Below, in pieces: positions 3,001 to 44,402 of a stretch of DNA of 64,000 nucleotides. The DNA is from Blastocatellales bacterium (lineage in GTDB: Bacteria; Acidobacteriota; Blastocatellia; RBC074). The notes under the pieces were generated by a model that was not told the DNA's origin, searched no databases, and saw only the letters and a list, made by a program, of their open reading frames with translations. Both the position numbers and the translations under genes were made by a program. The stretch lies in contig JBFWXQ010000001.1 in assembly GCA_050187295.1 (NCBI GenBank), forward strand, positions 27,574 through 91,573. Direction: 5' to 3'. Position 1 is the first letter of the stretch; every line of letters starts with the position of its first letter.

Positions 3001-6000
3001 ATTGACTCCTGTATCCGTTGCCATCGGAGATTTCAATGGTGATGGCAAGCTGGATTTCGCCGTTGCCAACATTGACTCCGCCAATGTGTCGATCCGGCTG
3101 GGGGATGGGCTGGGCGGCTTTTCCGGCACGACCGAGGTCAGTGTCGGCTCGGGTCCTTATTCCGTTGCCATCGGAGATTTCAATGGTGATGGCAAGCAGG
3201 ATTTCGCCGCCGCCAACTATTTCTCCGACACGGTCTCGATCCGGCTGGGGGATGGGATGGGCGGCTTTTCCGGCACGACCAATGTGGGTGTCGGCTCGGG
3301 CCCTGTTTCCGTGGCCATCGGTGATTTCAATGGGGATGGCAAACAGGATTTCGCCACCGCCAACAATTTATCCAACACGGTCTTGATCCGGCTGGGAGGC
3401 TGCGATCTGCCACCGACGATCACGCCCACGGGTCTTACGCTCACCGCGGGCCAAACCGCCAGCGCCGCGAATATTGCCACCGCCGCCGATGCTGAAGATA
3501 CCCTTAACACACTGCAACTCGCGATCAGCGGCGACGGCATGACCTTCGGCAATACGGCCACGCTCAACGGTGTGACCGTCACGCTGACCGACAGCAACGC
3601 GGGCGCGACAGGCGTCAATCCCGATGCGATGGGACAGGTCCTGGCCGATGTCGCCACGACCTGCACAGCCACGAATGCAACCTTCAAACTGCGCGTCACC
3701 GACAGCCGTGGACAAACCGACACCAAAGACTTCACCCTGAATACTCCACATGTGGGCATCACGCTCGGCGCCAGTCCGACGGTTGGGCAGGGGACAACCA
3801 GCGCAAATTTACCTTACACGGCCACCACCGGCAGCCCGAATCAATATAGCATTGACTACGATGCCGCCGCCGAAAGCGCGGGCTTCGTGGATGTCGGCGT
3901 GACCGTGCTGCCCGCCTCGCCCATCGGGCTGGTGGTGCCGGCAGCGGCTCCGTTGGCAAGCTACAACGGGACGCTCACCGTCCGGGATGGCACGACAGGT
4001 TGCATCGGCAGCAGCATCCCCTTCACTGTGACGGTCATTGTTCCGCCGATCCTGGGCGACTATGCGAATGCGACGGTGACGCTGGGCGGCTCCGCGACCG
4101 TCACGCCGAATGCCGCGCCGCTGAATACGACCAGCATCCAGGTTGCGACCAATACGAATTTCAAGGGGACGTTCGCGGCGGATCCGGCGACAGGCGTCGT
4201 GCGGGTGACGAATGCGCATCCGGTCGGGACGTACGCGGTGACGGTGGCGGCGTTTAATGGCACGGTGAGAACGCAAAAAAACTTCACGCTGACGGTGCAG
4301 CCCGGCCCCGCTTGTAACGCAACGACTATCTTCACCGGCACGACCAATGTGGGCGTCGGCTCGTTACCACAATCCGTAGCCATCGGGGATTTCAATGGCG
4401 ATGGCAAACAGGATGTCGCCGTTGCGAACTCTGGTTCCGCCACGGTCTCGATTCGGCTGGGGGATGGGCTGGGCGGCTTCTCCGGCACGACCAACGTGGG
4501 TGTCGGCACGACTCCTGTTTCCGTGGCCATCGGAGATTTCAATGGGGATGGCAAACAGGATTTCGCCACCGCCAACTCCGGCTCCGCCAATGTCTCGATC
4601 CGGCTGGGGGATGGGCTGGGCGGATTCTCCGGCACGACCAATGTGGGTGTCGGAGCGGTTCCTTATTCCGTGGCCATCGGGGATTTCAACGGGGATGGCA
4701 AACAGGATGTCGCCACCGCCAACCGCGGTTCCAACAATGTCTCGATCCGGCTGGGGGATGGGCTGGGCGGTTTCTTCGGCACGACCAATGTTGGCGTCGG
4801 CTTGTTCCCTCGTTCCGTGGCCATCGGGGATTTCAATGGGGATGGCAAGCAGGATTTCGCCGCCGCCAACCAGGCCTTCAACACGGTCTCGATCCGGCTG
4901 GGGGATGGGATGGGCGGCTTTTCCGGCTCGACCGAGGTAAGTGTCGGCGCGAATATTTTTTCCGTGGCGATCGGAGATTTCAATGGGGATGGCAAGCAGG
5001 ATTTCGCCACCAACAACTTTGATTCCAACACAGTCTCGATCCGGCTGGGGGATGGGATGGGCGGATTTTCCGGCACGACCGATGTGGGCGTCGGCTCAAG
5101 ACCTTATTCCGTGGCCATCGGAGATTTCAATGGGGATGGCAAGCAGGATTTCGCCGCCGCCAACTCTAACTCCGCTAATGTCTCGATCCGGCTGGGGGAT
5201 GGGATGGGCGGCTTCTCCGGGACGACCAGTGTGGGCGTCGGCATGAGTCCTCGATTCGTGGCTATCGGGGATTTCAATGGGGATGGCTGGCAGGATTTCG
5301 CCGCTCCCAACCAGGATTCCAACACAGTCTCGATCCGTCTGGGAGGCTGCGGTATGCCGCCGACGATCTCGCCCACTGGCCTGACGCTTACCGCAGGCCA
5401 AACTGTCAGCGCTGCGACAATTGGCAATACCGCCGATGCTGAAGATGCGCTCAATACTCTGCAACTCGCCATCAGCAGCGATGGCATGACCTTCGGCAAT
5501 ACGGCCACGCTCAACGGCATGACCGTCACCCTGACCGACAGCAATGGGGGCGCGACAGGCATCAATCCCAATGCAATGGGGCAGGTCATCGCCGATGCCA
5601 GCGCGTCCCTGACGGCGACCGACGCAACATTCAAACTGCGCGTCACCGATAGCAGTGGACTAACCGACATCCAGAACTTCTCCGTGACGATCAATTGCCC
5701 GACGATCACCGTCACCCCAGCAACGGCAGCGAATGGCTTCGTAGGAACGGCTTATTCGCAAACCTTCACGCAGACGGGCGGCAACGGAGCAATTACCTGG
5801 AGCAGCACCGGAACCCTGCCTGATGGATTGACGCTCGATCCTTCAACCGGCGAGTTGGCTGGTACGCCCACGGCTGTCGGCGCGTTCACTTTCACCGTTC
5901 GCGCCACAGACCAGAACAACTGCTTTGGCGAGACCCAATACACCGTCGTCATCAGCGGCAACGGATTGATGTATTACCCGCTGCCCAGGCCGATCAGGTT

Positions 6001-7186
6001 GTTTGACACTCGCGCACCGATTCCGGGATTCCCGGCTTGCGAGTATTTGAGCCAGCCGCTGGTGGCCAATGGCGAACTTGTCAAAAACGCTCGGATAACC
6101 TGCGACAGCATCACCATTCCGGCCAACGCCGCCGCCATCGTGGGCAATGCCACGGTCATCACTCCTGCCACTGCTGGTTTCATAACCTTGTGGCCGGATG
6201 GACAGGCGCGGCCTCCGGTCTCGAATCTGAACTTCACTGCGGGTCAGGTCGTCCCGAATGCTTTCACCGTCGGTTTGAGCATCACCGGCACCGGCAATTT
6301 CAGAATTTACTCCACCTCAGACACAGACTTCGCTGTGGACGTGACCGGATACTTCGCGCCGCCATCACCCAGCGGTTTGTATTACCACCCATTGCCGAGG
6401 CCGATTCGCTTGTTCGACACACGCGCAGCCATTCCGGGCTTCCCGGCTTGCGAGTATTTGAATCAACCGCTGGTCGGGGGCGGCGAATTGTCCAAGCAGG
6501 CTCAAATCACCTGCGACGGCATCACCATCCCAGCCGACGCAATGGCCATCGTCGGCAACGCTACGGTTGTTACGCCTTCCGGCAATGGTTTCATCACGTT
6601 GTGGCCGGATGGGCAGTCGCGTCCTCCGGTCTCGAATCTGAACTTCGTGACCGGGCAGGTTGTTCCGAACGCCTTCACAGTAGGTCTGGGAGTCAGTGGC
6701 GAATTCCGTACGTTCTCGTCTTCAAATGCTGACTTCATCGTGGACATCACGGGTTATTACAGCCCTTCGCCGACCGACGCTAACGGAGCGGGTTTGCTGT
6801 ATTCACCGCTGACAAAACCGATTCGTTTGTTTGACACGCGAGCGACGATTCCAGGCTTCCCGGCCTGCGAGTATCTGAATCAACCGCTCATCGCTAACGG
6901 CGAACTCGTTAAGTCTGCGCACACGACCTGCGACAACATCACGATTCCTGCGACTGCGGCCGCTATCGTCGGCAACGCGACAGTGGTTTCGCCCGCAGCG
7001 AACGGCTTTATCACGCTGTGGCCTGACGGACAATCACGGCCTCCGGTGTCGAATCTGAATTATCTGGCGGGGCAGGTAGTCCCGAACGCTTTCACCGTAG
7101 GGTTGAACGTGGGTGGGAGCTTCCGCATCTACAGCTTCGCCGGTATGGATTTCATAGTGGATATCACCGGATTCTTCGCTCCGTAA
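1..7186 (+). CDS. Giant secreted repeat protein, 5'-truncated at the window edge. Three blocks of ~7 FG-GAP-like repeats alternate with a ~320-aa 'GGCDLPPT…' module and an Ig-like module, followed by a putative Ig domain and three ~140-aa C-terminal repeats.
   Basis: Frame 2 is open from nt 2, so the M at 134 is internal. The unit 'GGFSGTTNVGVG..P.SVAIGDFNGDGKQDFA.AN..S.NVSIRLGDG' recurs more than 24 times. The motif 'TGGNGAITWSSTGTLPDGLTLDPSTGELAGTP' is Ig-like. Three repeats begin 'YYPLPRPIRLFDTRA.IPGFPACEYL'. The ORF runs 134..7186 and stops at TAA 7184-7186. Confidence 0.8.
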   Translation, partial: GGFSGTTNVSVGSAPLSVAIGDFNGDGKQDFATANESSNNVSIRMGICTILTLNNYPNATVALGGSTIVTPDAVPQNATSIQVATNTNFKGTFAADPATGIVQVTNAHPVGTYPVTVTAFNGTQSLQKTFTLMVQPGPACNATTIFTGTTTVGVGSDPQSLAIGDFNGDGKQDVAVANSGSGNVSIRLGDGLGGFTGTTTVGVGSGPASVAIGDFNGDGKQDFAVANSGSNNVSIRLGDGMGGFSGTTNVGVSTNPTSVTIGDFNGDGKQDFAVANIGSSNVSIRLGDGLGGFSGSTNVSVGTNPRSVAIGDFNGDGKQDFAAANFGSNTVSIRLGDGMGGFSGTTTVAVGIQPISVAIGDFNGDGKQDFAAVNLNNANVSIRLGDGIGGFSGTTNVGVNTNPSSVAIGDFNGDGKQDFAATNLNSATVSIRLGDGMGGFSGTTNVSVGSLPQTVAIGDFNGDGRQDFATANQGSSNVSIRLGGCDLPPTLMPTGLTLTAGQTASAANIATAADAEDTLNTLQLAISGDGMTFGNTATLNGVTVTLTDSNAGATGVNPDAMGQVLADVATTCTATNATFKLRVTDSRGQTDTKDFTLNTPHVGITLGASPTVGQGTTSANLPYTATTGSPNQYSIDYDAAAESAGFVDVTNAALPSSPIGLVVPAAAPLASYNGTLTVRDGTTGCIGSSIPFTVTVIVPPILGDYANATVTLGGSTTVTPDAAPQNATSIQVATNTNFKGTFAADPATGVVRVTNAHPVGTYAVTVTAFNGTVSTQKNFTLTVQPGPACNATTIFTGTTDVGVGSLPRSVAIGDFNGDGKQDFATANSGSNNVSIRLGDGMGGFSGTTNVGVGAAPYSVAVGDFNGDGKQDFAVANIDSANVSIRLGDGLGGFSGTTNVSVGSAPLSVAIGDFNGDGKQDFATANLLSANVSIRLGDGLGGFSGTTSVGVGSGPYSVAIGDFNGDGKQDFVTANSGSANVSIRLGDGLGGFFGTTNVGVGLTPVSVAIGDFNGDGKLDFAVANIDSANVSIRLGDGLGGFSGTTEVSVGSGPYSVAIGDFNGDGKQDFAAANYFSDTVSIRLGDGMGGFSGTTNVGVGSGPVSVAIGDFNGDGKQDFATANNLSNTVLIRLGGCDLPPTITPTGLTLTAGQTASAANIATAADAEDTLNTLQLAISGDGMTFGNTATLNGVTVTLTDSNAGATGVNPDAMGQVLADVATTCTATNATFKLRVTDSRGQTDTKDFTLNTPHVGITLGASPTVGQGTTSANLPYTATTGSPNQYSIDYDAAAESAGFVDVGVTVLPASPIGLVVPAAAPLASYNGTLTVRDGTTGCIGSSIPFTVTVIVPPILGDYANATVTLGGSATVTPNAAPLNTTSIQVATNTNFKGTFAADPATGVVRVTNAHPVGTYAVTVAAFNGTVRTQKNFTLTVQPGPACNATTIFTGTTNVGVGSLPQSVAIGDFNGDGKQDVAVANSGSATVSIRLGDGLGGFSGTTNVGVGTTPVSVAIGDFNGDGKQDFATANSGSANVSIRLGDGLGGFSGTTNVGVGAVPYSVAIGDFNGDGKQDVATANRGSNNVSIRLGDGLGGFFGTTNVGVGLFPRSVAIGDFNGDGKQDFAAANQAFNTVSIRLGDGMGGFSGSTEVSVGANIFSVAIGDFNGDGKQDFATNNFDSNTVSIRLGDGMGGFSGTTDVGVGSRPYSVAIGDFNGDGKQDFAAANSNSANVSIRLGDGMGGFSGTTSVGVGMSPRFVAIGDFNGDGWQDFAAPNQDSNTVSIRLGGCGMPPTISPTGLTLTAGQTVSAATIGNTADAEDALNTLQLAISSDGMTFGNTATLNGMTVTLTDSNGGATGINPNAMGQVIADASASLTATDATFKLRVTDSSGLTDIQNFSVTINCPTITVTPATAANGFVGTAYSQTFTQTGGNGAITWSSTGTLPDGLTLDPSTGELAGTPTAVGAFTFTVRATDQNNCFGETQYTVVISGNGLMYYPLPRPIRLFDTRAPIPGFPACEYLSQPLVANGELVKNARITCDSITIPANAAAIVGNATVITPATAGFITLWPDGQARPPVSNLNFTAGQVVPNAFTVGLSITGTGNFRIYSTSDTDFAVDVTGYFAPPSPSGLYYHPLPRPIRLFDTRAAIPGFPACEYLNQPLVGGGELSKQAQITCDGITIPADAMAIVGNATVVTPSGNGFITLWPDGQSRPPVSNLNFVTGQVVPNAFTVGLGVSGEFRTFSSSNADFIVDITGYYSPSPTDANGAGLLYSPLTKPIRLFDTRATIPGFPACEYLNQPLIANGELVKSAHTTCDNITIPATAAAIVGNATVVSPAANGFITLWPDGQSRPPVSNLNYLAGQVVPNAFTVGLNVGGSFRIYSFAGMDFIVDITGFFAP

Positions 7187-36720: not shown

Positions 36721-36892
36721 TCATATAGTTAGCTCCGTCAGGAGCGACCTGTTTATAGCTTTGGTTTAGCAATTTCCTTATAGCAGTTTTCAGGTGAGTG
36801 CGACTTATACACGCGGGAATAGTAGGACAGGTTAATAACCTGTCCTACTATCGGGTCGCGCCTGACGGAGCTACCACCCGCGCAAACTACTT
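36721..36892. repeat. Palindromic MITE/REP-like element upstream of the NACHT gene. Contains the 45-nt core shared with 13778-13822.
   Basis: 'TAGCTCCGTCAGGAGCGACCTGTTTATAG' at 36721 pairs as an inverted repeat with 'GTCGCGCCTGACGGAGCTA' at 36857-36875. The end 'GGAGCTACCACCCGC' matches the end of the 40.8-kb copy. Confidence 0.5.
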
Positions 36893-37005: not shown

Positions 37006-40000
37006 ATGAGCTATCCCAACCGCGACATCTTTCTGACGCAGACCGAACAAGACCGATTGCGAAAACTGTTCGATGAAAAGAAGGTCAAACCCATCACAGA
37101 CTTTCTTTCAAAAGCCGTCGAACAGGTCAAAGACGGCAAGGGCTGGGCTGAATCCTTTCTGGCCGCCGCTCCGTGGATGGCCGACATAGCCGAAGCCGTT
37201 GGAACCGCGCTGCCGATTATCGGCGCAGCCGTCAAGTTGATCGAGAAATGGCTGGAGCCTGAGTTGTGGGAATTGGGAGCGATTGCCTGCACTCTGGCTT
37301 ATCAATCGGCGGTTCGCGATGCGCTTGAAGCCGAAAAATCTTCGTCCGTGGATCAATACCGCGCGGGCAAAAAGATTGACGCCAAAATCGTCCGCCAAAT
37401 CAGAGATGCCTCGCCAGCCGAACAAGCCGACCTGAGTACCTTTTCATTCGAAGACGCAGCCAATCACGTTTTCGTTCGTCGAGCTGACCGCGCTCTGGAA
37501 ATCGCGCTTGATGCGGCTGGTTTTGACGCAAAACAGCAAGCCGGAATCTTTAATCGTGTCCACGATGGTTTTGTTGAAAAGCTGAAACTGTTGCTGTCTG
37601 ACCGCCGGACCGCCGAAAAGTTCGAGCCATTCCATAAAGCCATAAATGAACTGGGTAACGAAGAGAAGCGGGCGCATATCGCTCTGGCCACTCACGCCGA
37701 ATATCAGCGAGAACAGTATGAAGCCGCGCCGGTCTTTCGCTTTGAACCATTCGCGCTGAAAGACGTTTACGTCGAAACCGAATGCGGCGTGCTGGAATGG
37801 CGGGAAATCAAAAAGCATATGGACAAACGGCAGGCTCACGACGGCGAACCGGCAGAGCGCGACTTTTCTCCGTTCAGTCCAAAGCACGGCGGGCGGCATA
37901 ACCTGATTAATACGGTGATGGGTTTTATTCGCGATCCCGATTTCAAAGAAGCCATCGTTCTGCAGGGAGAAACGGGCGCGGGGAAATCTTCCTTCACCAT
38001 TCGTCTCAGCACCGAATTGCTCAATGCCGGATTCTGTCCAATTCGCGTCAGGCTAAAAAAGTTGCGTTTGGGCGAACCGCTGATCGAATCACTGCCGGAT
38101 GCCATCGAACTCGGCGACGAAGATCGGCTGGCGAAAAACCCGCTGACCAAACCGCGAGACATGCTGTTGGGCGGGCGAATTTTCAATGAACGATATGGCA
38201 CGACGAACCTGTGCCGATACGTTTTGATTTTGGACGGTTGGGACGAATTGAGTCTGGCCGACAACAAAAGCTTCCGCGACAACGTACAGGAAATGTTGCG
38301 GCAAGTGCGAGACGAATTCTGGGGCGGTAAATACTCCACGCTGGTTCGTGTCCTTGTCACCGGACGGCCATCGAATGAAGTGGGAGAGGATAAATACTTC
38401 CTGCGCTCTGAAACCAAAATCCTGACGATGCGGCGGATGAAGTCTGCCCAACTTAGCCAACTTGTCGGCGCGATGAAAACCGCGCTGGAAACTCAGCCGG
38501 TTTACACCGAAAACGAAGCCACCTGGCAGATTACCGACCTGACAAAGTTCGAGCCTGTTTTCAATGACAACATAAAATTCTTAGATGAAGAAGAGGCCTT
38601 ACGGTTGGAAGTTTTGGGTTCGCCATTGCTGGCTTATCTGGCGATTCGAGTGATGGCCGAAACCGAAGGCGATCTGACCGAACTGATCAATCAACCAACA
38701 CGGCTTTATCGCGAACTGACCGATCTGACCTGCGGCGGCGCCGGCAAATACATTGCGGACAAACGCGACAAACCCGGCGAGCGCGATGTCTGGTGGCGAA
38801 CCGAACAGCCCAAATTGCGCCGTTTGTTGCAACGCACGGCGGCGGCGATGACCATCAACGGCAAGGAATACATTTCAAAAGAACAATTGTTGCGCCGCGT
38901 TTTTGACGACGGCGAAAACGACGAAGCTGACGACATCATCGCCCAGGCAGAGCGCGAATCTTCGCTGTCCAGGCTGATGGTCAGTTTCTTTTTCAAAGGC
39001 GGTCATCCTGAAATGGGTTGCGAGTTTTCGCATAAATCCTTCCGCGAATATCTGACTGCCGAATGCATTGTCGAAGTGTTAAAGGATTTCGGACACCGTA
39101 GCGATGGTTTTGATTTCCGGCGACGCCCGAAACCGGAGCGGGATTTTTTGTCGAATGGCGACGACCCGCGACATGAATTTTCCCGGCGATTGTCTGAACT
39201 GCTGGCTCCACAATGGTTGAAGTGGGAAGTCATCGGATATCTGGGCGAATTGCTGCGATGGGAAATTCAACGCAGCCGTAACGGTACGGAGAGCGTGAGC
39301 GACCCGGACCTGACTCGGGTCGCTCACGCTCCCCGTACTGCATCGCCGTCAGCCAATACCTTTCGCCAATGGGAACAGATTCGTGACGGGCTGGCCGACT
39401 TGTGGGAATGGTGGGTTGACGGAGCGCATCTGCGACCCCAATGGGAGGGAAAAGGCAAGAAGCGCTATATTGTTCCGGCATATGTTCACGATTTGATCAA
39501 ATGGTCTGCGCCGCTGGATGAACAGGAAACATACGATCAATCCATTGGCTTTGAAACTGCTACGGCAATGGACGCGCATATGGGCGACGGGTTGTTCAGG
39601 CTTTGTGCCTGGGTGCATTTTTTTATTGCCGAAGCCGATGGTTGGCTGGAAGAACAAGAAGAGGAAAAACAAATAACACCAAGTATTTTATCGGGAAAAA
39701 CCATAGCTCCCTCTCAACGTTACTATCAAAGTTTAACCATACGAGAAAAACGGGAATGGCGAGTCTTTGCACCTTCTGGGATCAGATGGGAGTCTTTCGA
39801 TCACATCATTGCCCGTATCAACTCCGATTCAAGCCGCCCCGGATGGTTATTTCCTTCGAATAGCAACTTGTCTGGAATTGATTTTAGTAATACACGGTTG
39901 GCTGGTACACTCCTTGATGACTCAATCCTAAAATGGGCCAATCTCAGTAATACCACTCTCCGACGTGCAGCACTTTATAGTGTAAATTTTGAAGGCGCAT

Positions 40001-40329
40001 TTCTTGATTGGGCAAGTCTAGAACACGCACGACTTGACGGCGCTATCCTCGACCGCGCTCGCCTCTCCGGCGCTCGCCTCTCCGGCGCTAGCCTCGACGG
40101 CGCTAGCCTCGACGGCGCTAGCCTCGACGGCGCAGACTTATCAGATGCTCGTAATCTGACACGAGAGCAGATTGAGAGCGCGCACATTGACGAACACACG
40201 CAATTGCCCAAGGAGTTCGAGCAGTTGAAACAGGAGATGCTGGCGCGACAGCGGCATGCGGAATCGGAATCGGAAGAGTTGGAGATTGAAGAAGAGTCGG
40301 ATGAATTGGATGACGACGGCGAATCTTGA
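37006..40329 (+). CDS. STAND/NACHT-family P-loop NTPase with an N-terminal helical domain of unknown function, C-terminal pentapeptide repeats and an acidic tail
   Basis: Walker A 'GETGAGKSS' and Walker B 'YVLILDGWDEL' (the NACHT hhhhDGxDE form). More than 20 pentapeptide repeats 'A(N/D)LSN / ARLSG / ASLDG' at aa ~960-1060. Tail 'ESESEELEIEEESDELDDDGES'. Hydrophobic stretch 'FLAAAPWMADIAEAVGTALPIIGAAVKLI' near the N-terminus. Confidence 0.7.
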   Translation: MSYPNRDIFLTQTEQDRLRKLFDEKKVKPITDFLSKAVEQVKDGKGWAESFLAAAPWMADIAEAVGTALPIIGAAVKLIEKWLEPELWELGAIACTLAYQSAVRDALEAEKSSSVDQYRAGKKIDAKIVRQIRDASPAEQADLSTFSFEDAANHVFVRRADRALEIALDAAGFDAKQQAGIFNRVHDGFVEKLKLLLSDRRTAEKFEPFHKAINELGNEEKRAHIALATHAEYQREQYEAAPVFRFEPFALKDVYVETECGVLEWREIKKHMDKRQAHDGEPAERDFSPFSPKHGGRHNLINTVMGFIRDPDFKEAIVLQGETGAGKSSFTIRLSTELLNAGFCPIRVRLKKLRLGEPLIESLPDAIELGDEDRLAKNPLTKPRDMLLGGRIFNERYGTTNLCRYVLILDGWDELSLADNKSFRDNVQEMLRQVRDEFWGGKYSTLVRVLVTGRPSNEVGEDKYFLRSETKILTMRRMKSAQLSQLVGAMKTALETQPVYTENEATWQITDLTKFEPVFNDNIKFLDEEEALRLEVLGSPLLAYLAIRVMAETEGDLTELINQPTRLYRELTDLTCGGAGKYIADKRDKPGERDVWWRTEQPKLRRLLQRTAAAMTINGKEYISKEQLLRRVFDDGENDEADDIIAQAERESSLSRLMVSFFFKGGHPEMGCEFSHKSFREYLTAECIVEVLKDFGHRSDGFDFRRRPKPERDFLSNGDDPRHEFSRRLSELLAPQWLKWEVIGYLGELLRWEIQRSRNGTESVSDPDLTRVAHAPRTASPSANTFRQWEQIRDGLADLWEWWVDGAHLRPQWEGKGKKRYIVPAYVHDLIKWSAPLDEQETYDQSIGFETATAMDAHMGDGLFRLCAWVHFFIAEADGWLEEQEEEKQITPSILSGKTIAPSQRYYQSLTIREKREWRVFAPSGIRWESFDHIIARINSDSSRPGWLFPSNSNLSGIDFSNTRLAGTLLDDSILKWANLSNTTLRRAALYSVNFEGAFLDWASLEHARLDGAILDRARLSGARLSGASLDGASLDGASLDGADLSDARNLTREQIESAHIDEHTQLPKEFEQLKQEMLARQRHAESESEELEIEEESDELDDDGES

Positions 40330-40680
40330 TCCGCCAATTTTCTGTTGGCGCTACCGTACTTTGTATGGGTGAAAACCGCATCTGCGGCTGCGGCTGCCTG
40401 ATGTGCGGAAGGTCTTTGACCTTCCGGCATTGCTTTCAATTTCTCCTGGGGCTACGCCCCGACCGCTGGGGCATAGGCCCAAAATCATCGCCCATTTACC
40501 GGTATGGCTAAGCTATACCACACATCGGGCGGCGAAGCCGCGAAATCTTACCTGCTGAAATTATGGAATGTCGTGATTTCCCATCCTTCAAGTGCAACTG
40601 CTTGACGATTGGCGAGGCTGGCTCTTAAACTCCGACGCTAAAGCAATCAAATCAAATCCGGCACTACCGAATTTGTGTGG

Positions 40681-40845
40681 GTTGTAGTTCCGTAGGAACG
40701 ACCTGTTTATAGTTATCAGGGTGACAGATCTTGAAGCTCCGTCAGGAGCGACCTGTGACCAGAGATCGCTCCTGACGGAGCTTTGTGGAAATTGAATAGC
40801 TCCATCTATAAACAGGCCGCTCCTGATGGAGCTAACCACCGCCAA
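40681..40845. repeat. Palindromic MITE/REP-like element, same family as 36721-36892
   Basis: Perfect 17-bp hairpin 'AGCTCCGTCAGGAGCGA…TCGCTCCTGACGGAGCT' (40735-40782). Outer inverted repeat 'cgacctgtttatag' / 'ctataaacaggccgc'. Ends 'GGAGCTAACCACCGCC'. Confidence 0.5.
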
Positions 40846-41038
40846 TTCCCACACCAATCACCGTAGCGCCTCAAAATTCAAACAGACTGGAACGCGGGCA
40901 ATGCCGTCATTCGTTGGCAATAGCAGTGAAATCAACCGCAGACTCTTTGCTGCTGCGCCGCCTGATGTGCGGAAGGCCTGTGGCCTTCCGGGTAATTGAA
41001 AAGATATTGAAGTCAAGAAGATGATTTTCCGATCAGAA

Positions 41039-41227
41039 CCCCGGAGGGGTGAAAAGAAATTAGCCCAGGGTGAAACCCTGGGTGTAGTTAGCAAAGTTTC
41101 CAAGCCCCAGCGGGGCGACAGACGTCGCTATTCCGAAGGTGCTTCTACCGCCCCGCTGGGGCTTGAATGGTTAATGGCCTCGTTCCCCGGATTGCATCCG
41201 GGGCTATCCTCTTGCTGTCCCTCCGAG
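41039..41227 (+). ncRNA. Candidate GC-rich structured RNA of unknown family (~190 nt)
   Basis: Closing helix CCGGAGGG(41042) with CCCTCCG(41219). Hairpin CCCAGGG-tgaaa-CCCTGGG. Perfect 13-bp long-range helix AGCCCCAGCGGGG(41103-41115) with CCCCGCTGGGGCT(41151-41163), enclosing hairpin GCGAC-aga-CGTCGC. Hairpin CCCCGGA-ttgca-TCCGGGG. No ORF with an RBS. Strand not determined. Confidence 0.3.
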
Positions 41228-41410
41228 ACTTTCTTCTGAAGTTCATTCTCTTAAATGCTATATCATTTGCGCGCAAGCAGCACTCCTTATCGAGGATGGT
41301 GATGATGCAGTCATAGCCACCAATAACGTTGCCCATCTGTCATTATTTGCGCCTGCTGTTCTTTGGCAAGATATTCAATAACTTAAATCCAAGAGCTTTG
41401 AACCCTATGC

Positions 41411-41440
41411 TTGACGATTGGCGAGGCTGGCTCTTAAACT
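41411..41440 (+). promoter_or_regulatory. Sigma-70-like promoter candidate upstream of acnA; a second copy is at 40602-40631
   Basis: TTGACG (41411-41416), 17-nt spacer ATTGGCGAGGCTGGCTC, then TTAAAC/TAAACT. The identical 36-nt string occurs at 40602-40637. Confidence 0.35.
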
Positions 41441-41528
41441 CCGGCACTACTGCAATTAAATCAAATCCAAACAGACTGGAGCGCAGTCACCGTCCGCGTT
41501 CCAGCTTCAAATCAGGTGAAAACAGCAA

Positions 41529-44402
41529 ATGTCACACAATCTATTCAATACAAATCAATCGTTCGATCTGGGAAATGGAAAGCAGGGCAAGTTTTATTCG
41601 TTGCCTGAACTGGAACGGCAGGGCGTCGGGCCGGTGTCGAAATTGCCGGTCAGCATTCGCATCGTGCTGGAATCCGTTCTGCGAAATTGCGACGGCAAAA
41701 AAGTCAGGGAAGACGACGTGCGCGCTCTGGCCAATTGGCAAGCCAACGCCGAACGGACGGCGGAAATTCCATTCGTCGTCGCGCGCATAGTTTTGCAGGA
41801 TTTCACGGGCGTGCCGTTGCTGGTTGATCTGGCGGCGATGCGTTCGACCGTGGCCGGGTTGGGCAAAAATCCCAAGCTGATCGAACCGCTGGTTCCGGTT
41901 GATCTGGTGGTTGATCATTCGGTTCAGGTTGATGTGGCCGGGACTTCGGACGCTTTGCAGAAAAACATGGAAATCGAATTCGAGCGCAATCGCCAACGCT
42001 ACGAATTTCTGAAATGGGGCATGCAGGCTTTCGACACTTTCAAAGTCGTGCCGCCCGGCATAGGCATCGTCCATCAGGTCAATCTGGAATACCTGGCCAA
42101 AGGCGTGCTGGAAAAAGACGGCGTTTATTATCCTGACACTCTGGTCGGGACTGATTCGCACACGACGATGATCAACGGTTTGGGCGTTGTGGCCTGGGGC
42201 GTCGGCGGCATCGAAGCCGAAGCCGGAATGCTGGGACAGCCGGTTTACTTCCTGACGCCGGATGTCGTCGGCGTTCACATGTTCGGCAAATTGAAAGAAG
42301 GCGTGACGGCGACCGATCTGGTTTTGCATTGCACCGAAATGCTGCGCAGCGCGAAAGTCGTCGGCAAATTCGTCGAATACTTCGGCGAAGGCGCGGCCAG
42401 TTTGTCGCTGACTGACCGCGCGACGATTGCGAACATGGCTCCGGAATACGGCGCGACGATGGGCTTTTTCGGCGTTGACGAAGAAACCTGCAATTACCTG
42501 AAAGCCACCGGCCGCACGGATGATCAGATCAACGCGTTTAGGAATTACTTCCAGGCGCAAGGGCTGTTCGGCATTCCGCGCGCGGGCGAAATCGAATACA
42601 GCCAGGCGCTGGAACTTGACCTGGCGACGGTTGTGCCCAATCTGGCCGGGCCTAAACGCCCGCAGGATCGGATTGAGCTGACCAGCATCAAAAAGACATT
42701 CAATGAATTGTTCAGCAAACCAGTTACTGAAAACGGTTACAACAAACCTGCCGATGAATTGCAGAAGCGTTATCAGGTCAGTCTGGGAACACGCAACGGA
42801 AGAATTGTGACTGGTGGTGGCAATCAGGACCCGAACAGTTTGCCTGTCATTCAGAAGGGGATTGAAACCACCCAAAACACAAGCTCGTTGACCGAACTGG
42901 AAATGGTCAACAATCGTCCGACGCCTGATCGGGTTGCAGATGAATCCGCAGATGGCGACACAAGCGTGTCCACCGATTTAGGTCACGGCGATGTTCTGAT
43001 TGCGGCGATTACCTCCTGCACCAACACGTCGAATCCGAGCGTCATGCTGGCGGCGGGATTGCTGGCGAAGAAAGCCGTCGAGAAAGGTTTGCGAGTCAAG
43101 CCTACTGTTAAAACCTCTCTTGGGCCGGGTTCGCGTGTGGTGTCTGATTATCTGGCCAGGACGGGTTTGCAAGCTTATTTGGATCAACTCGGCTTCAATA
43201 TCGTCGGTTACGGATGCACGACCTGCATCGGCAATTCGGGGCCGCTTGATCCGAAGATCGAAGAAGTCGTCGTCAAAAACGATTTGATCGCCGCTTCGGT
43301 TTTGTCCGGCAATCGCAACTTCGAAGCCCGCGTACATCAAAACATCAAAGCCAACTTCCTGATGTCACCTCCGTTGGTCGTAGCCTTTGCATTGGCCGGA
43401 CGCGTGGACATCAACATGACTTCTGAACCGATAGGACGCGACAAAGACGGCGCTGACGTTTACCTGAAAGACATCTGGCCAACCAATGCCGAGATCAAAT
43501 CCGTGTTGAGCGCGGCGACAGATGCGGCGACTTATCGGCGGTTGTATTCCGACTTCACTTCTGAAAATCCGCTGTGGAATGAAATTCCCGCCAGCGCCGG
43601 CGATGTTTACGAATGGGACGCGAAATCAACTTACATCCAGGAGCCGCCATTCTTTGAAAACTTCGGCATGGAAGCGGGAACGGCCGCCGACATCAAAGGC
43701 GCGCGTCCGCTGGGCATTTTTGGAGATTCGGTGACGACCGATCACATCAGCCCGGCGGGTTCGATCAAAGCGACTTCTCCGGCGGGAAAGTATCTGATCG
43801 AAAACGGCGTCGAGCAGAAGGATTTCAACAGCTACGGTTCGCGGCGCGGCAATGATCGCGTCATGACTCGCGGAACATTCGCCAATGTCCGCATCAAAAA
43901 CCTGATGGTTCCCGGAACCGAAGGCGGCGTGACGAAGTTTCATCCGGGCGGCGAACAGATGAGCATTTACGACGCTTCGATGAAATATCAGGCAGCGGGA
44001 ATTCCGCTGGTGGTCATCGCCGGTCAGGAATACGGCACGGGCAGTTCGCGCGATTGGGCGGCCAAGGGAACCAGATTGCTGGGCGTCAAAGCCGTTGTCG
44101 CGCAAAGCTTCGAACGCATTCATCGCTCGAATCTGGTCGGCATGGGCGTTTTGCCGCTGCAATTCAAAGACGGCGTCAATGCTCAAACGCTGGGGTTGGA
44201 TGGAACTGAAACTTTCGATGTTGTTGGTTTGGATGGCGGCATTAAACCTCAACAGGACGTGACTCTGGTCATTCATCGCGCCAACGGATCGAAAGAGGAA
44301 GTTCCGGTCAGATTGAGAATTGATACTGCGATTGAAGTTGATTATTACCAGCACGGAGGCATTTTGCCTTACGTGCTGCGGCAATTGATCGCGCAGGGCT
44401 GA
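41529..44402 (+). CDS. acnA: Aconitate hydratase A (aconitase/IRP family)
   Basis: 957 aa. '[11 protein letters not shown]', 'GTDSHTTM', '[10 protein letters not shown]', 'CTTCIGNSG', 'SR' active-site motifs. Start '[10 protein letters not shown]'. Confidence 0.9.

What the first reader, a model, noticed from the sequence alone, without database searches (positions are those of the whole stretch)
41039..41227. Compact GC-rich multi-helix RNA-like element in the 1.2-kb intergenic region upstream of acnA
About 190 nt with no RBS-supported ORF folds into a closed structure. A terminal helix CCGGAGGG/CCCTCCG closes it. There is a GNRA-type hairpin CCCAGGG-UGAAA-CCCUGGG. A perfect 13-bp long-range helix (41103-41115 with 41151-41163) encloses a further hairpin. 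A fourth hairpin is CCCCGGA-UUGCA-UCCGGGG. This level of nested perfect complementarity is not expected by chance at this GC content. It does not obviously match RNase P, tmRNA, SRP or 6S RNA. It could be an sRNA, a cis-regulatory leader, or a remnant of a mobile-element RNA.
Basis: seen in the sequence. Interest (0 to 1): 0.55.

Follow-up and report, generated by a model that had tools for sequence, protein, structure and literature searches.

The report
Hairpin-rich mobile repeat, not an RNA gene
The "multi-helix RNA" upstream of acnA is one copy of a small non-coding mobile DNA repeat, and its hairpin core matches repeats that flank a single-strand (IS200-like) transposase gene in related soil bacteria, so a database "small RNA" motif is probably transposon-end DNA.

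Summary
The hairpins are real. The region folds far better than shuffles (z -6.8 on the + strand, -7.6 on the - strand). It is not a locus-specific RNA.

It is the core of a ~258-bp element (41005-41262) with imperfect 28-nt terminal inverted repeats. Fourteen copies share these ends in at least 8 Acidobacteriota assemblies, all with unrelated flanks. The element is absent upstream of acnA in a 99%-identical strain and in an 84% relative. It lies the other way round in a 92% relative.

The core has two-fold symmetry. Two outward-facing Acido-Lenti-1-like units (Rfam RF01687, 35.6 bits against a threshold of 37) flank a 22-bp central hairpin.

The same core occurs:
- bare;
- inside other miniature inverted-repeat elements (MITEs) with different ends and true 6-bp or 9-bp target duplications;
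- flanking an IS200-like Y1 transposase gene in 6 of 6 loci examined. There the gene sits where the central loop would be, and cores keep remnants of the gene's 3' end.

Best reading: a REPIN-like deletion derivative of a Y1 transposon, carried in this lineage inside a MITE shell.

Still open: the transposase that moves this copy, its target duplication, and whether it is transcribed.

The parts
41005..41262 (.). Whole element (~258 bp): a MITE-like shell plus the symmetric hairpin core
   Evidence: nhmmer and MAFFT of 12 copies, later 14. Similarity stops at TATAG... on the left and ...CTATA on the right, and the flanks are unrelated.
41005..41032 (+). Left terminal inverted repeat of the shell: TATTGAAGTCAAGAAGATGATTTTCCGA. 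Family consensus: TATAGAAATCAAGAAAATGATTTTCCGA.
   Evidence: The same terminus occurs with a different core at L002:5031-5213 and L002:6752-6907.
41037..41082 (-). Left arm, an Acido-Lenti-1-like unit read on the minus strand: hairpin C 41082-41064, linker CTAATTTCTTTTC, hairpin D 41050-41038
   Evidence: Rfam RF01687, 35.6 bits (gathering score 37), E 6.7e-6 for the 2-kb search and 2e-4 for the whole window. Found by the arm HMM.
41101..41165 (.). Central hairpin: 22-nt arms 41101-41122 and 41144-41165, loop 41123-41143. Each arm contains its own small palindrome (GCCCC-AGC-GGGGC).
   Evidence: repeat I3. Stems are conserved with 3 pairs changed on both sides, and loops differ strongly between copies. 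In Y1 loci the transposase gene lies between the two stem halves.
41185..41229 (+). Right arm, an Acido-Lenti-1-like unit read on the plus strand: hairpin C 41185-41203, linker CTATCCTCTTGCT, hairpin D 41217-41229, degenerate here (GTCCC-TCC-GAGAC; other copies have GGGAC)
   Evidence: Arm HMM hit at 41185+. Alignment of the four arms of the window and L002. All other copies carry the intact CCCTCCGGGAC.
41235..41262 (-). Right terminal inverted repeat of the shell: TCTGAAGTTCATTCTCTTAAATGCTATA on the plus strand

Best explanation
Window 41005-41262 is a non-autonomous transposable element.

Its ~200-bp core (about 41033-41234) is a REPIN-like doublet. Two copies of a two-hairpin unit (stem-loop C, then GGCTA-N3-TCT, then stem-loop D) point outwards, one on each strand, around a central hairpin.

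Shown:
- The core is a dispersed repeat with conserved hairpins.
- In related Acidobacteriota the same units flank a small Y1 (HUH, IS200-like) transposase gene in inverted orientation, with the gene lying between the two halves of the central hairpin.
- Gene-less cores keep a piece of that gene's 3' end.

Inferred:
- The core arose by loss of the transposase gene.
- Its hairpins are the single-stranded-DNA recognition structures of that enzyme class. This explains why stems are kept by compensatory changes and why both strands 'fold'.
- In the Blastocatellia lineage of this window the core is always enclosed by a 28-nt terminal-inverted-repeat shell, which also occurs with another core. So this copy was most likely spread as a MITE by a still unidentified transposase that recognises those ends.

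No role in acnA expression is indicated.
For: Presence, absence and orientation:
- The 99% AcnA strain (L001) and the 84% relative (L003) lack the element. The 92% relative (L002) has it in the opposite arm orientation.

Copies:
- 14 copies share the ends TATAG...CTATA in at least 8 assemblies, with unrelated flanks.
It is multi-copy within single genomes.
- 188 arms were found, many as (-,+) pairs about 150-190 nt apart.

Rfam:
- Matches above the gathering score occur as such pairs in L029 and L115. L001 holds a 49.9-bit match.

Hairpin conservation:
- The outer pairs of hairpin D covary: CG53/TA35/GC3 and GC54/CG20/AT12/TA5, with 0 of 1000 shuffles reaching the observed pairing.

Sister families are true transposons:
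- 6-bp target duplications (TAACTA, TAATTA, TAGCTA; 7-bp TAGCCTG) in one family.
- 9-bp duplications (CGAAAAAAC, GACCGCGGG) in the Verrucomicrobiota family.
- A 9-bp duplication, TCCAAACAG, at a site that is empty in this window.

Y1 link:
- PF01797 genes lie directly between arms in L068 and L099.
- The same holds at 4 of 4 loci fetched through the protein alone: arm(-) 122-170 nt upstream; arm(+) 47 and 69 nt downstream at two of them, beyond an IS110 insertion at a third, and none detected downstream at the fourth (L136).
- The window core matches these arms directly (E 7e-7).
- Remnants of the gene's 3' end lie beside or inside gene-less arm units: inside a full core in L147, next to the arm upstream of the gene in L068.
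Against: - No precise empty site was found for this family, and its target duplication is unresolved. The ends are palindromic CTATAG, and there is no direct repeat beyond them.
- No transposase with these ends was found.
- No Y1 gene lies in the 64-kb window or in any locus carrying this family. The Y1 link therefore rests on Terriglobia-type relatives.
- The arms next to Y1 genes and the window's own arm score just under Rfam's threshold: 31-35.6 bits against 37.
- The Y1 protein passes NCBI's IS200 model but not its RAYT model: 26.8 bits against 80.
- Whether the element is transcribed is unknown.
Confidence: 0.75

Rival explanations
1. It is a trans-acting small RNA gene (the Rfam 'Acido-Lenti-1 sRNA'), or a longer ~190-nt structured RNA that contains it. 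It would be transcribed from the minus strand and act on its own.
For: - RF01687 match at 41082-41037 (-), E 6.7e-6.
- Weinberg et al. 2010 rated the motif a probable RNA with covariation and no gene association (PMC2864571).
- The stems covary.
- G-U pairs outnumber A-C pairs 33 to 16 on the Rfam strand in hairpin C. The way stems were selected favoured G-U, so this count is biased.
Against: - The motif comes in mirror-image pairs, one per strand. It also occurs in tandem arrays at 74, 100 and 192-nt spacing.
- It lies inside elements with target-site duplications.
- It flanks Y1 transposase genes.
- No conserved promoter was seen. The only promoter-like hit nearby is a weak 9-of-12 match on the + strand at 40996-41025.
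- Presence varies between near-identical strains.
- Covariation is equally expected for single-stranded-DNA hairpins.
Confidence: 0.1
2. It is an adopted bidirectional transcription terminator or insulator. Each outward-facing hairpin C followed by its T-rich linker would stop transcripts leaving the element. Here it would separate the upstream NACHT/pentapeptide gene from acnA.
For: - The terminator scan flags 41082-41064 (-): an 8-bp stem followed by CTAATTTCTT.
- The linker consensus is T-rich (CTAwTwTCTt).
- The symmetric design would act on both strands.
- MITEs and REPs are known to act this way in other bacteria (general knowledge; PMC3733652 background).
Against: - The U-tract is weak and interrupted.
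- The right arm's linker here is CTATCCTCTTGCT.
- A conventional terminator-like hairpin already follows the upstream gene at 40406-40426.
- No positional bias to gene 3' ends was tested.
- This reading can coexist with the mobile-element explanation rather than replace it.
Confidence: 0.12
3. It is a cis-regulatory leader or upstream regulatory element of acnA.
For: It lies in the 1.2-kb region upstream of acnA, on the same DNA.
Against: - It ends 266 bp before the acnA start. A duplicated promoter-like segment (41408-41468) lies between them.
- It is absent from the orthologous region in L001 and L003 and inverted in L002.
- All other copies are next to unrelated genes.
Confidence: 0.02
4. 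It is a degraded protein-coding sequence.
For: ORFs of 72 aa (+) and 63 aa (-) overlap it.
Against: - Neither ORF has a Pfam match.
- Family copies differ by 1-nt and 15-18-nt indels.
- Conservation follows stems, not codons.
Confidence: 0.01

Closest known systems
REP/REPIN sequences with their RAYT (Y1, HUH) transposases ('REPtrons')
   Same: - Short hairpin repeats occur as singlets, inverted doublets and clusters in intergenic DNA.
- A small single-copy Y1 transposase gene, at a conserved chromosomal position, is flanked by inverted copies of the repeat.
- An invariant CTA follows the stem. On the other strand this reads DTAG, against GTAG in classical REPs.
- Stems are kept by compensatory change.
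   Different: - The unit is bigger: two hairpins of about 46 nt, and the doublet has its own central hairpin.
- The tag is GTAG in only 31% of arms.
- The flanked protein passes NCBI's IS200 model, not its RAYT model.
- In this window's lineage the doublet sits inside a terminal-inverted-repeat shell.
TIRtrons / TIRYT genes of Acidobacteria (Di Nocera et al. 2013, PMC3733652)
   Same: They are IS200-like tyrosine transposase genes flanked by long terminal inverted repeats instead of canonical REPs. Acidobacteria form a sharply defined group, and some of the repeats form repeat families arranged as dimers or clusters.
   Different: I could not compare sequences, because the repeats are shown only in a figure that is not held. 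The paper's GGGGWSAS motif does not fit these arms on inspection. The paper makes no link to RF01687.
Acido-Lenti-1 RNA motif (Rfam RF01687; Weinberg et al. 2010)
   Same: - The same two-hairpin unit with GGCUA after the first stem.
- The same phyla.
- Sister copies score 38-49.9 bits, above the threshold.
- The seed alignment already shows multi-copy and tandem occurrences.
   Different: - The window's arm scores 35.6 bits, under the threshold of 37.
- Rfam treats the motif as a stand-alone sRNA of 46 nt.
- Here it is half of a symmetric ~200-bp DNA module tied to transposons.
Bacterial MITEs (Correia/NEMIS, ERIC, RUP, Nezha) and palindrome-associated elements derived from IS200/IS605
   Same: - 100-300 bp, non-coding, with terminal inverted repeats.
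- Intergenic, multi-copy, with strong predicted folding.
- Sister families show 6-bp and 9-bp target duplications.
   Different: - One and the same core occurs with at least four unrelated termini and two duplication lengths. Conversely, this family's termini occur with another core.
- The parent transposase of the shell is unknown.

Membership tests
Rfam RF01687 Acido-Lenti-1 | Covariance-model score at or above the gathering score (37 bits) | tested here: not met
   The window's left arm scores 35.6 bits. The right arm is not reported because its second hairpin is broken. Related elements score 38-49.9 bits.
Rfam RF01687 Acido-Lenti-1 | Two hairpins joined by a linker that starts GGCUA, with stems supported by covariation | tested here: met
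   Alignment to the model. Arm alignments. Outer pairs of hairpin D covary, with 0 of 1000 shuffles reaching the observed pairing.
MITE (non-autonomous DNA transposon) | Short, non-coding, with terminal inverted repeats shared by many dispersed copies | tested here: met
   258 bp with a 28-nt imperfect terminal inverted repeat. 14 copies with unrelated flanks. The ORFs have no Pfam match.
MITE (non-autonomous DNA transposon) | Target-site duplication, ideally checked against an empty site | tested here: inconclusive
   This family shows no direct repeat beyond the palindromic CTATAG ends, and no empty site was found. Sister families clearly have 6-bp and 9-bp duplications.
MITE (non-autonomous DNA transposon) | A full-length insertion sequence with the same ends that encodes the transposase | tested here: not met
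   None was found among 125 loci, nor in the metagenome scan for the terminus. The sample is limited, so this does not exclude one.
REPIN-RAYT system | Inverted doublet of a hairpin repeat | tested here: met
   Arms at 41037(-) and 41185(+). The same (-,+) spacing of about 150-190 nt recurs in more than 30 loci.
REPIN-RAYT system | Y1 transposase gene flanked by inverted copies of the same repeat | tested here: met
   Met in relatives: L068, L099, and 4 of 4 loci fetched through the protein alone. Not testable for the window's own genome. No Y1 gene lies in the 64 kb.
REPIN-RAYT system | RAYT-specific protein signature | tested here: not met
   The L068-type protein scores 26.8 bits on NF047646 REP_Tyr_transpos (cut-off 80) and 75.4 bits on NF033573 IS200 (cut-off 55). 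One true RAYT (L053, 107.6 bits) lies 2 kb from an arm, not adjacent to it.
REPIN-RAYT system | Conserved GTAG tetranucleotide next to the stem | tested here: inconclusive
   CTA is essentially invariant. The next base is T in 78 arms, C in 57, A in 48 and G in 2. So the tag reads GTAG in 31% and DTAG overall.
cis-regulatory leader of acnA | Conserved position and orientation upstream of the orthologous gene | tested here: not met
   Absent in L001 and L003, inverted in L002.

The most novel reading that the evidence does not exclude
The ~200-bp symmetric core may be a self-standing module that moves between transposon systems of different chemistry.

It would be born as the ends of a Y1 (single-strand, no duplication) element. 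It would then have been picked up repeatedly by unrelated double-strand MITE shells: 6-bp duplication, 9-bp duplication, and CTATAG ends. This spans at least Acidobacteriota and Verrucomicrobiota.

The reason could be that its hairpins give the carrier an advantage, for example termination or insulation, or access to single-stranded DNA. Alternatively, hairpin DNA may itself be the preferred landing site.

On this reading the Rfam 'sRNA' family RF01687 is a DNA-level transposon signal, and these would be chimeric elements with two possible ways of moving.
Probability: 0.2. Interest if true: 0.6.

Novelty: new variant of a known kind. Interest (0 to 1): 0.4.

Why it matters
Three reasons.

1. 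It removes a false lead. This is not an acnA riboswitch or leader, and not a locus-specific sRNA.

2. It gives a concrete, testable identity to an Rfam family whose function has stayed open since 2010. Acido-Lenti-1-like units are the hairpin ends of IS200-like Y1 elements and of their gene-less doublets. This matters for annotating soil Acidobacteriota and Verrucomicrobiota genomes, where such repeats break assemblies and are labelled as RNA genes.

3. The core and the termini combine freely: one core with several termini, and one terminus with several cores. That makes this a convenient natural system for asking how single-strand and double-strand transposition systems exchange parts.

Tried and rejected
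- Other Rfam hits in the region (MIR398, mraW, sR30) fall far below their thresholds. They lie on a different palindromic repeat and were dismissed.
- No other copy of the element exists in the 64-kb window.
- An empty-site search in metagenomes, joining the window's two flanks, found nothing.
- Flanks of the other copies have no unfilled counterpart among the loci held.
- The arm pattern has no match in viral contigs. The whole elements have no match in plasmids.
- Looking for a recurrent transposase ORF next to arms by all-against-all BLAST found no recurrent transposase. It found only paralogous giant genes in one Verrucomicrobiota genome.
- Listing ORFs inward of single arms gave 93 unspecific candidates, which I did not pursue.
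- A metagenome scan for the shell terminus gave only 2 further MITE copies and no insertion sequence.
- Counting G-U against A-C pairs to choose the functional strand gave 33 to 16. My stem selection favoured G-U, so I treat the result as inconclusive.
- MAFFT misaligned arms with 3-nt and 4-nt loops, so I did not build a covariance model. I used an HMM from a global alignment instead.
- My guess that 41283-41381 is the tail of a PIN/VapC gene got no Pfam support.
- The GGGGWSAS motif of published Acidobacteria TIRtrons does not fit these arms on inspection.
- The papers held that name Acido-Lenti-1 or RF01687 show no sign, from their titles and abstracts, of reinterpreting it. Only Weinberg et al. 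2010 was read.

Full report
**Observation.**

The window comes from a Blastocatellales (Acidobacteriota) metagenome-assembled genome. Its AcnA protein is 100% identical to a protein that NCBI labels that way.

The finding lies in the 1199-bp gap between two genes. Upstream is a NACHT/pentapeptide-repeat gene (37006-40329). Downstream is acnA (41529-44402).

The long one is part of a 22-nt inverted repeat, 41101-41122 with 41144-41165.

The 189 nt fold at -98.9 kcal/mol on the plus strand (z -6.8) and -100.8 on the minus strand (z -7.6). None of 200 shuffles did as well. The complementarity is therefore not chance.

Some details of the description do not hold:
- The region is not GC-rich.
- The 'GNRA' loop is a 5-nt loop that varies between copies or carries a 15-18-nt insert.
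- Both strands fold equally well. That already hints at DNA symmetry rather than at an RNA.

**First lead.**

Rfam gives one near-threshold match: Acido-Lenti-1 (RF01687) on the minus strand at 41082-41037. It scores 35.6 bits against a gathering score of 37, with E 6.7e-6. It is the only notable hit in the whole window.

Weinberg et al. 2010 described this 46-nt two-hairpin motif as a probable non-coding RNA of unknown function. They noted it is sometimes near group II introns (PMC2864571). Their seed alignment already shows many copies per genome and tandem copies 74, 110-115 and 192-200 nt apart.

**It is not tied to acnA.**

I fetched the acnA neighbourhoods of relatives.
- A strain with 99% identical AcnA (L001) lacks the element.
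- An 84% relative (L003) also lacks it.
- A 92% relative (L002) has it at 78% identity, but with the two arms exchanged relative to acnA.

The central loop (GCTATTCCGAAG) keeps the same orientation in the window and L002 while the arms are swapped. So the loop has flipped relative to the arms.

**True extent and family.**

The four arms of the window and L002 copies align with each other when each is read outwards. The element is therefore two-fold symmetric. The right arm is a second Acido-Lenti-1-like unit on the plus strand (41185-41229), and its second hairpin is broken here by one G>A change.

Hits fell in Acidobacteriota, Verrucomicrobiota, Planctomycetota and Cloacimonadota, often with many hits per genome.

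nhmmer with the window element found full-length close relatives in 10 further loci. Two more came from a metagenome scan.

Aligned, all copies share the ends TATAGAAaTCAAGAAAATGATTTTCCGA ... TCGGAAATTCTTTTTCTTAAAAGCTATA. Beyond those ends the flanks are unrelated. The window copy is therefore 41005-41262.

Within this close family the stems hardly vary.

Across 105 distinct arms, the two outer pairs of hairpin D switch among CG/TA/GC and among GC/CG/AT/TA. None of 1000 shuffles reached the observed level of pairing.

**A core shared by different transposons.**

More distant elements match only model positions 55-253, which correspond to window 41034-41232. So that interval is a module.

The module occurs in several settings:

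1. With the ends GTTTCTGTCGCGAAAC and real 6-bp target duplications (one 7-bp) that differ between copies and match within a copy: TAACTA, TAATTA, TAGCTA, TAGCCTG. Rfam calls the arms of this family above its threshold, as (-,+) pairs.

2. With the ends CTGATGTCAGG and a 9-bp duplication, TCCAAACAG, in L001. The site is uninterrupted in this window at 41463-41471. That element contains a 49.9-bit Acido-Lenti-1 match.

3. As a single arm in a 243-bp Verrucomicrobiota element with 20-nt inverted repeats and 9-bp duplications.

4. 'Bare', with the symmetry ending at hairpin D.

Conversely, the termini of the window's family also enclose a quite different core at L002:5031-5213 and L002:6752-6907. 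Core and shell are therefore separable.

**Link to a transposase.**

No recurrent transposase ORF lies beside the arms in the 120 loci.

A paper on REP-like repeats describes IS200-like tyrosine transposases of Acidobacteria flanked by long inverted repeats (PMC3733652). Prompted by it, I searched the loci with those protein sequences.

Two loci have a Y1 gene (PF01797, passing NCBI's IS200 model) directly between arms: L068 and L099. A third locus, L053, has a true RAYT 2 kb from an arm.

To remove the selection bias, I fetched homologues of the L068 protein through the protein alone. I read four independent chromosomal sites, each conserved across many samples.

All four have arms within 170 nt upstream of the gene:
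- L137: arm(-) 143 nt upstream and arm(+) 69 nt downstream.
- L147: arm(-) at -122, arm(+) at +47, followed by a complete core.
- L126: arm(-) at -170. Then comes an IS110-family insertion, and then arms(+).
- L136: four arms(-) at 100-nt spacing upstream.

In L137 the gene lies between the two halves of the central hairpin (CCCGTCCCGGAGGGC ... GCCCTCCGGGGCGGG). That is exactly the core with a gene in its loop.

In L147 a gene-less core retains about 25 nt of the gene's 3' end, and L068 keeps a similar remnant beside the arm upstream of its gene. Cores are therefore deletion derivatives.

The window's core matches these arms directly (E 7e-7). Rfam itself scores these arms just under its threshold.

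**Interpretation.**

What is shown:
- The feature is one copy of a dispersed, structured, non-coding repeat.
- Its hairpin units are homologous to the inverted repeats that flank a Y1 transposase gene.
- Sister elements have transposed with target duplications.

What is inferred:
- Y1/HUH enzymes work on hairpins in single-stranded DNA, as established for IS200/IS605 and REP-RAYT. On that basis, the stems are probably maintained as the enzyme's recognition structures. The invariant CTA after hairpin C would parallel the GTAG tag of REPs, though it reads GTAG in only 31% of arms.
- This window's copy always travels inside its 28-nt terminal-inverted-repeat shell. It was therefore probably spread as a MITE by another, unidentified transposase.

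The target duplication of this family could not be resolved, because the ends are palindromic CTATAG and no empty site was found.

**Rivals.**

- An sRNA, which is the Rfam label, is not excluded. It fits poorly with mirror-image pairs, tandem arrays, target duplications and transposase flanking.
- A terminator or insulator role is possible and could coexist with mobility. The terminator scan flags hairpin C plus its T-rich linker on the minus strand, but the U-tract is weak.
- An acnA leader and a decayed gene are contradicted.

**Novelty.**

REPIN-RAYT systems, TIR-flanked Y1 genes of Acidobacteria and MITEs are all known.

In the papers held I found no sign of the following, although I read only Weinberg et al. 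2010 among the papers that name the motif:
- that RF01687-type units are these transposon ends;
- that the doublet has its own central hairpin marking the place of the lost gene;
- that the same core sits inside several unrelated MITE shells.

I rate it a new variant of a known kind, of moderate interest. For the acnA locus itself the finding is ordinary.

Noticed in passing
window 40680-40860: A second, unrelated foldback repeat in the same intergenic region. It has nested inverted repeats: 40694-40712 with 40806-40824, 40734-40757 with 40760-40783, and 40735-40756 with 40812-40833. Short matches occur in L001:1211-1241. It produces the spurious MIR398 Rfam hits.
   Followed up: partly
window 40393-40427/40957-40991, 40599-40659/41408-41468, 40874-40900/41463-41489: Three segments upstream of acnA are duplicated in the same order, at 85-92% identity. 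They include a promoter-like TTGACG-18-TAAACT (40602 and 41411) and a terminator-like hairpin. The region looks like a partial tandem duplication that was later invaded by two repeats.
   Followed up: partly
L001:5640-5880 against window 41463-41471: A 250-bp MITE in the 99% strain, with ends TTGATGTCAGG.../...CCTGACATCAG and a 9-bp duplication, TCCAAACAG. The site is empty in the window. The MITE carries the same core type, including a 49.9-bit Acido-Lenti-1 match.
   Followed up: yes
window 41123-41143 against L002:550-570: The central-hairpin loop keeps the same orientation relative to acnA in both genomes, while the two arms are exchanged. This is a 'flip' of the spacer between inverted repeats.
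   Followed up: yes
L002:5031-5213, 5214-5345 and 6752-6907: Elements with the same CTATAG.../28-nt termini as the window's family but a different internal sequence (CGCGAATCACGCGG...). There are three within 6.9 kb.
   Followed up: partly
L126:2759-3796 (also L127, L128, L131, L134): An IS110-family transposase gene (DEDD_Tnp_IS110 + Transposase_20) lies between the Y1 gene and its downstream arms. This fits hairpin repeats acting as insertion targets for insertion sequences.
   Followed up: no
L136:1672-1960: Four arms in the same orientation at 100-nt spacing, directly upstream of a Y1 gene. They resemble the tandem arrays of the motif in the Lentisphaera seed sequences of Rfam.
   Followed up: no
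L022:4923-5165 and about 15 other JBEKRX01 loci: A 243-bp Verrucomicrobiota MITE with a single arm. It often lies about 200 nt from paralogous very large genes (up to 2297 aa). In L022 the sequence just downstream of it could, in one reading frame, encode a signal-peptide-like stretch; no ORF was confirmed there.
   Followed up: no
window 41283-41381 against L001:5407-5541: A short conserved reading frame (...DGD..V.AT.NV.HLSLF.PA..W.DIQ*) abuts the right end of the element. In L001 it follows an 83-aa ORF with overlapping stop and start codons. It looks like a decayed toxin-antitoxin pair, but Pfam gives no support.
   Followed up: partly
window 39284-39338 and 36819-36851: A 23-nt inverted repeat, 96% complementary, lies inside the NACHT/pentapeptide gene. 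A perfect 16-bp palindrome (ATAGTAGGACAGGTTA/TAACCTGTCCTACTAT) lies about 155 bp upstream of that gene's start.
   Followed up: no
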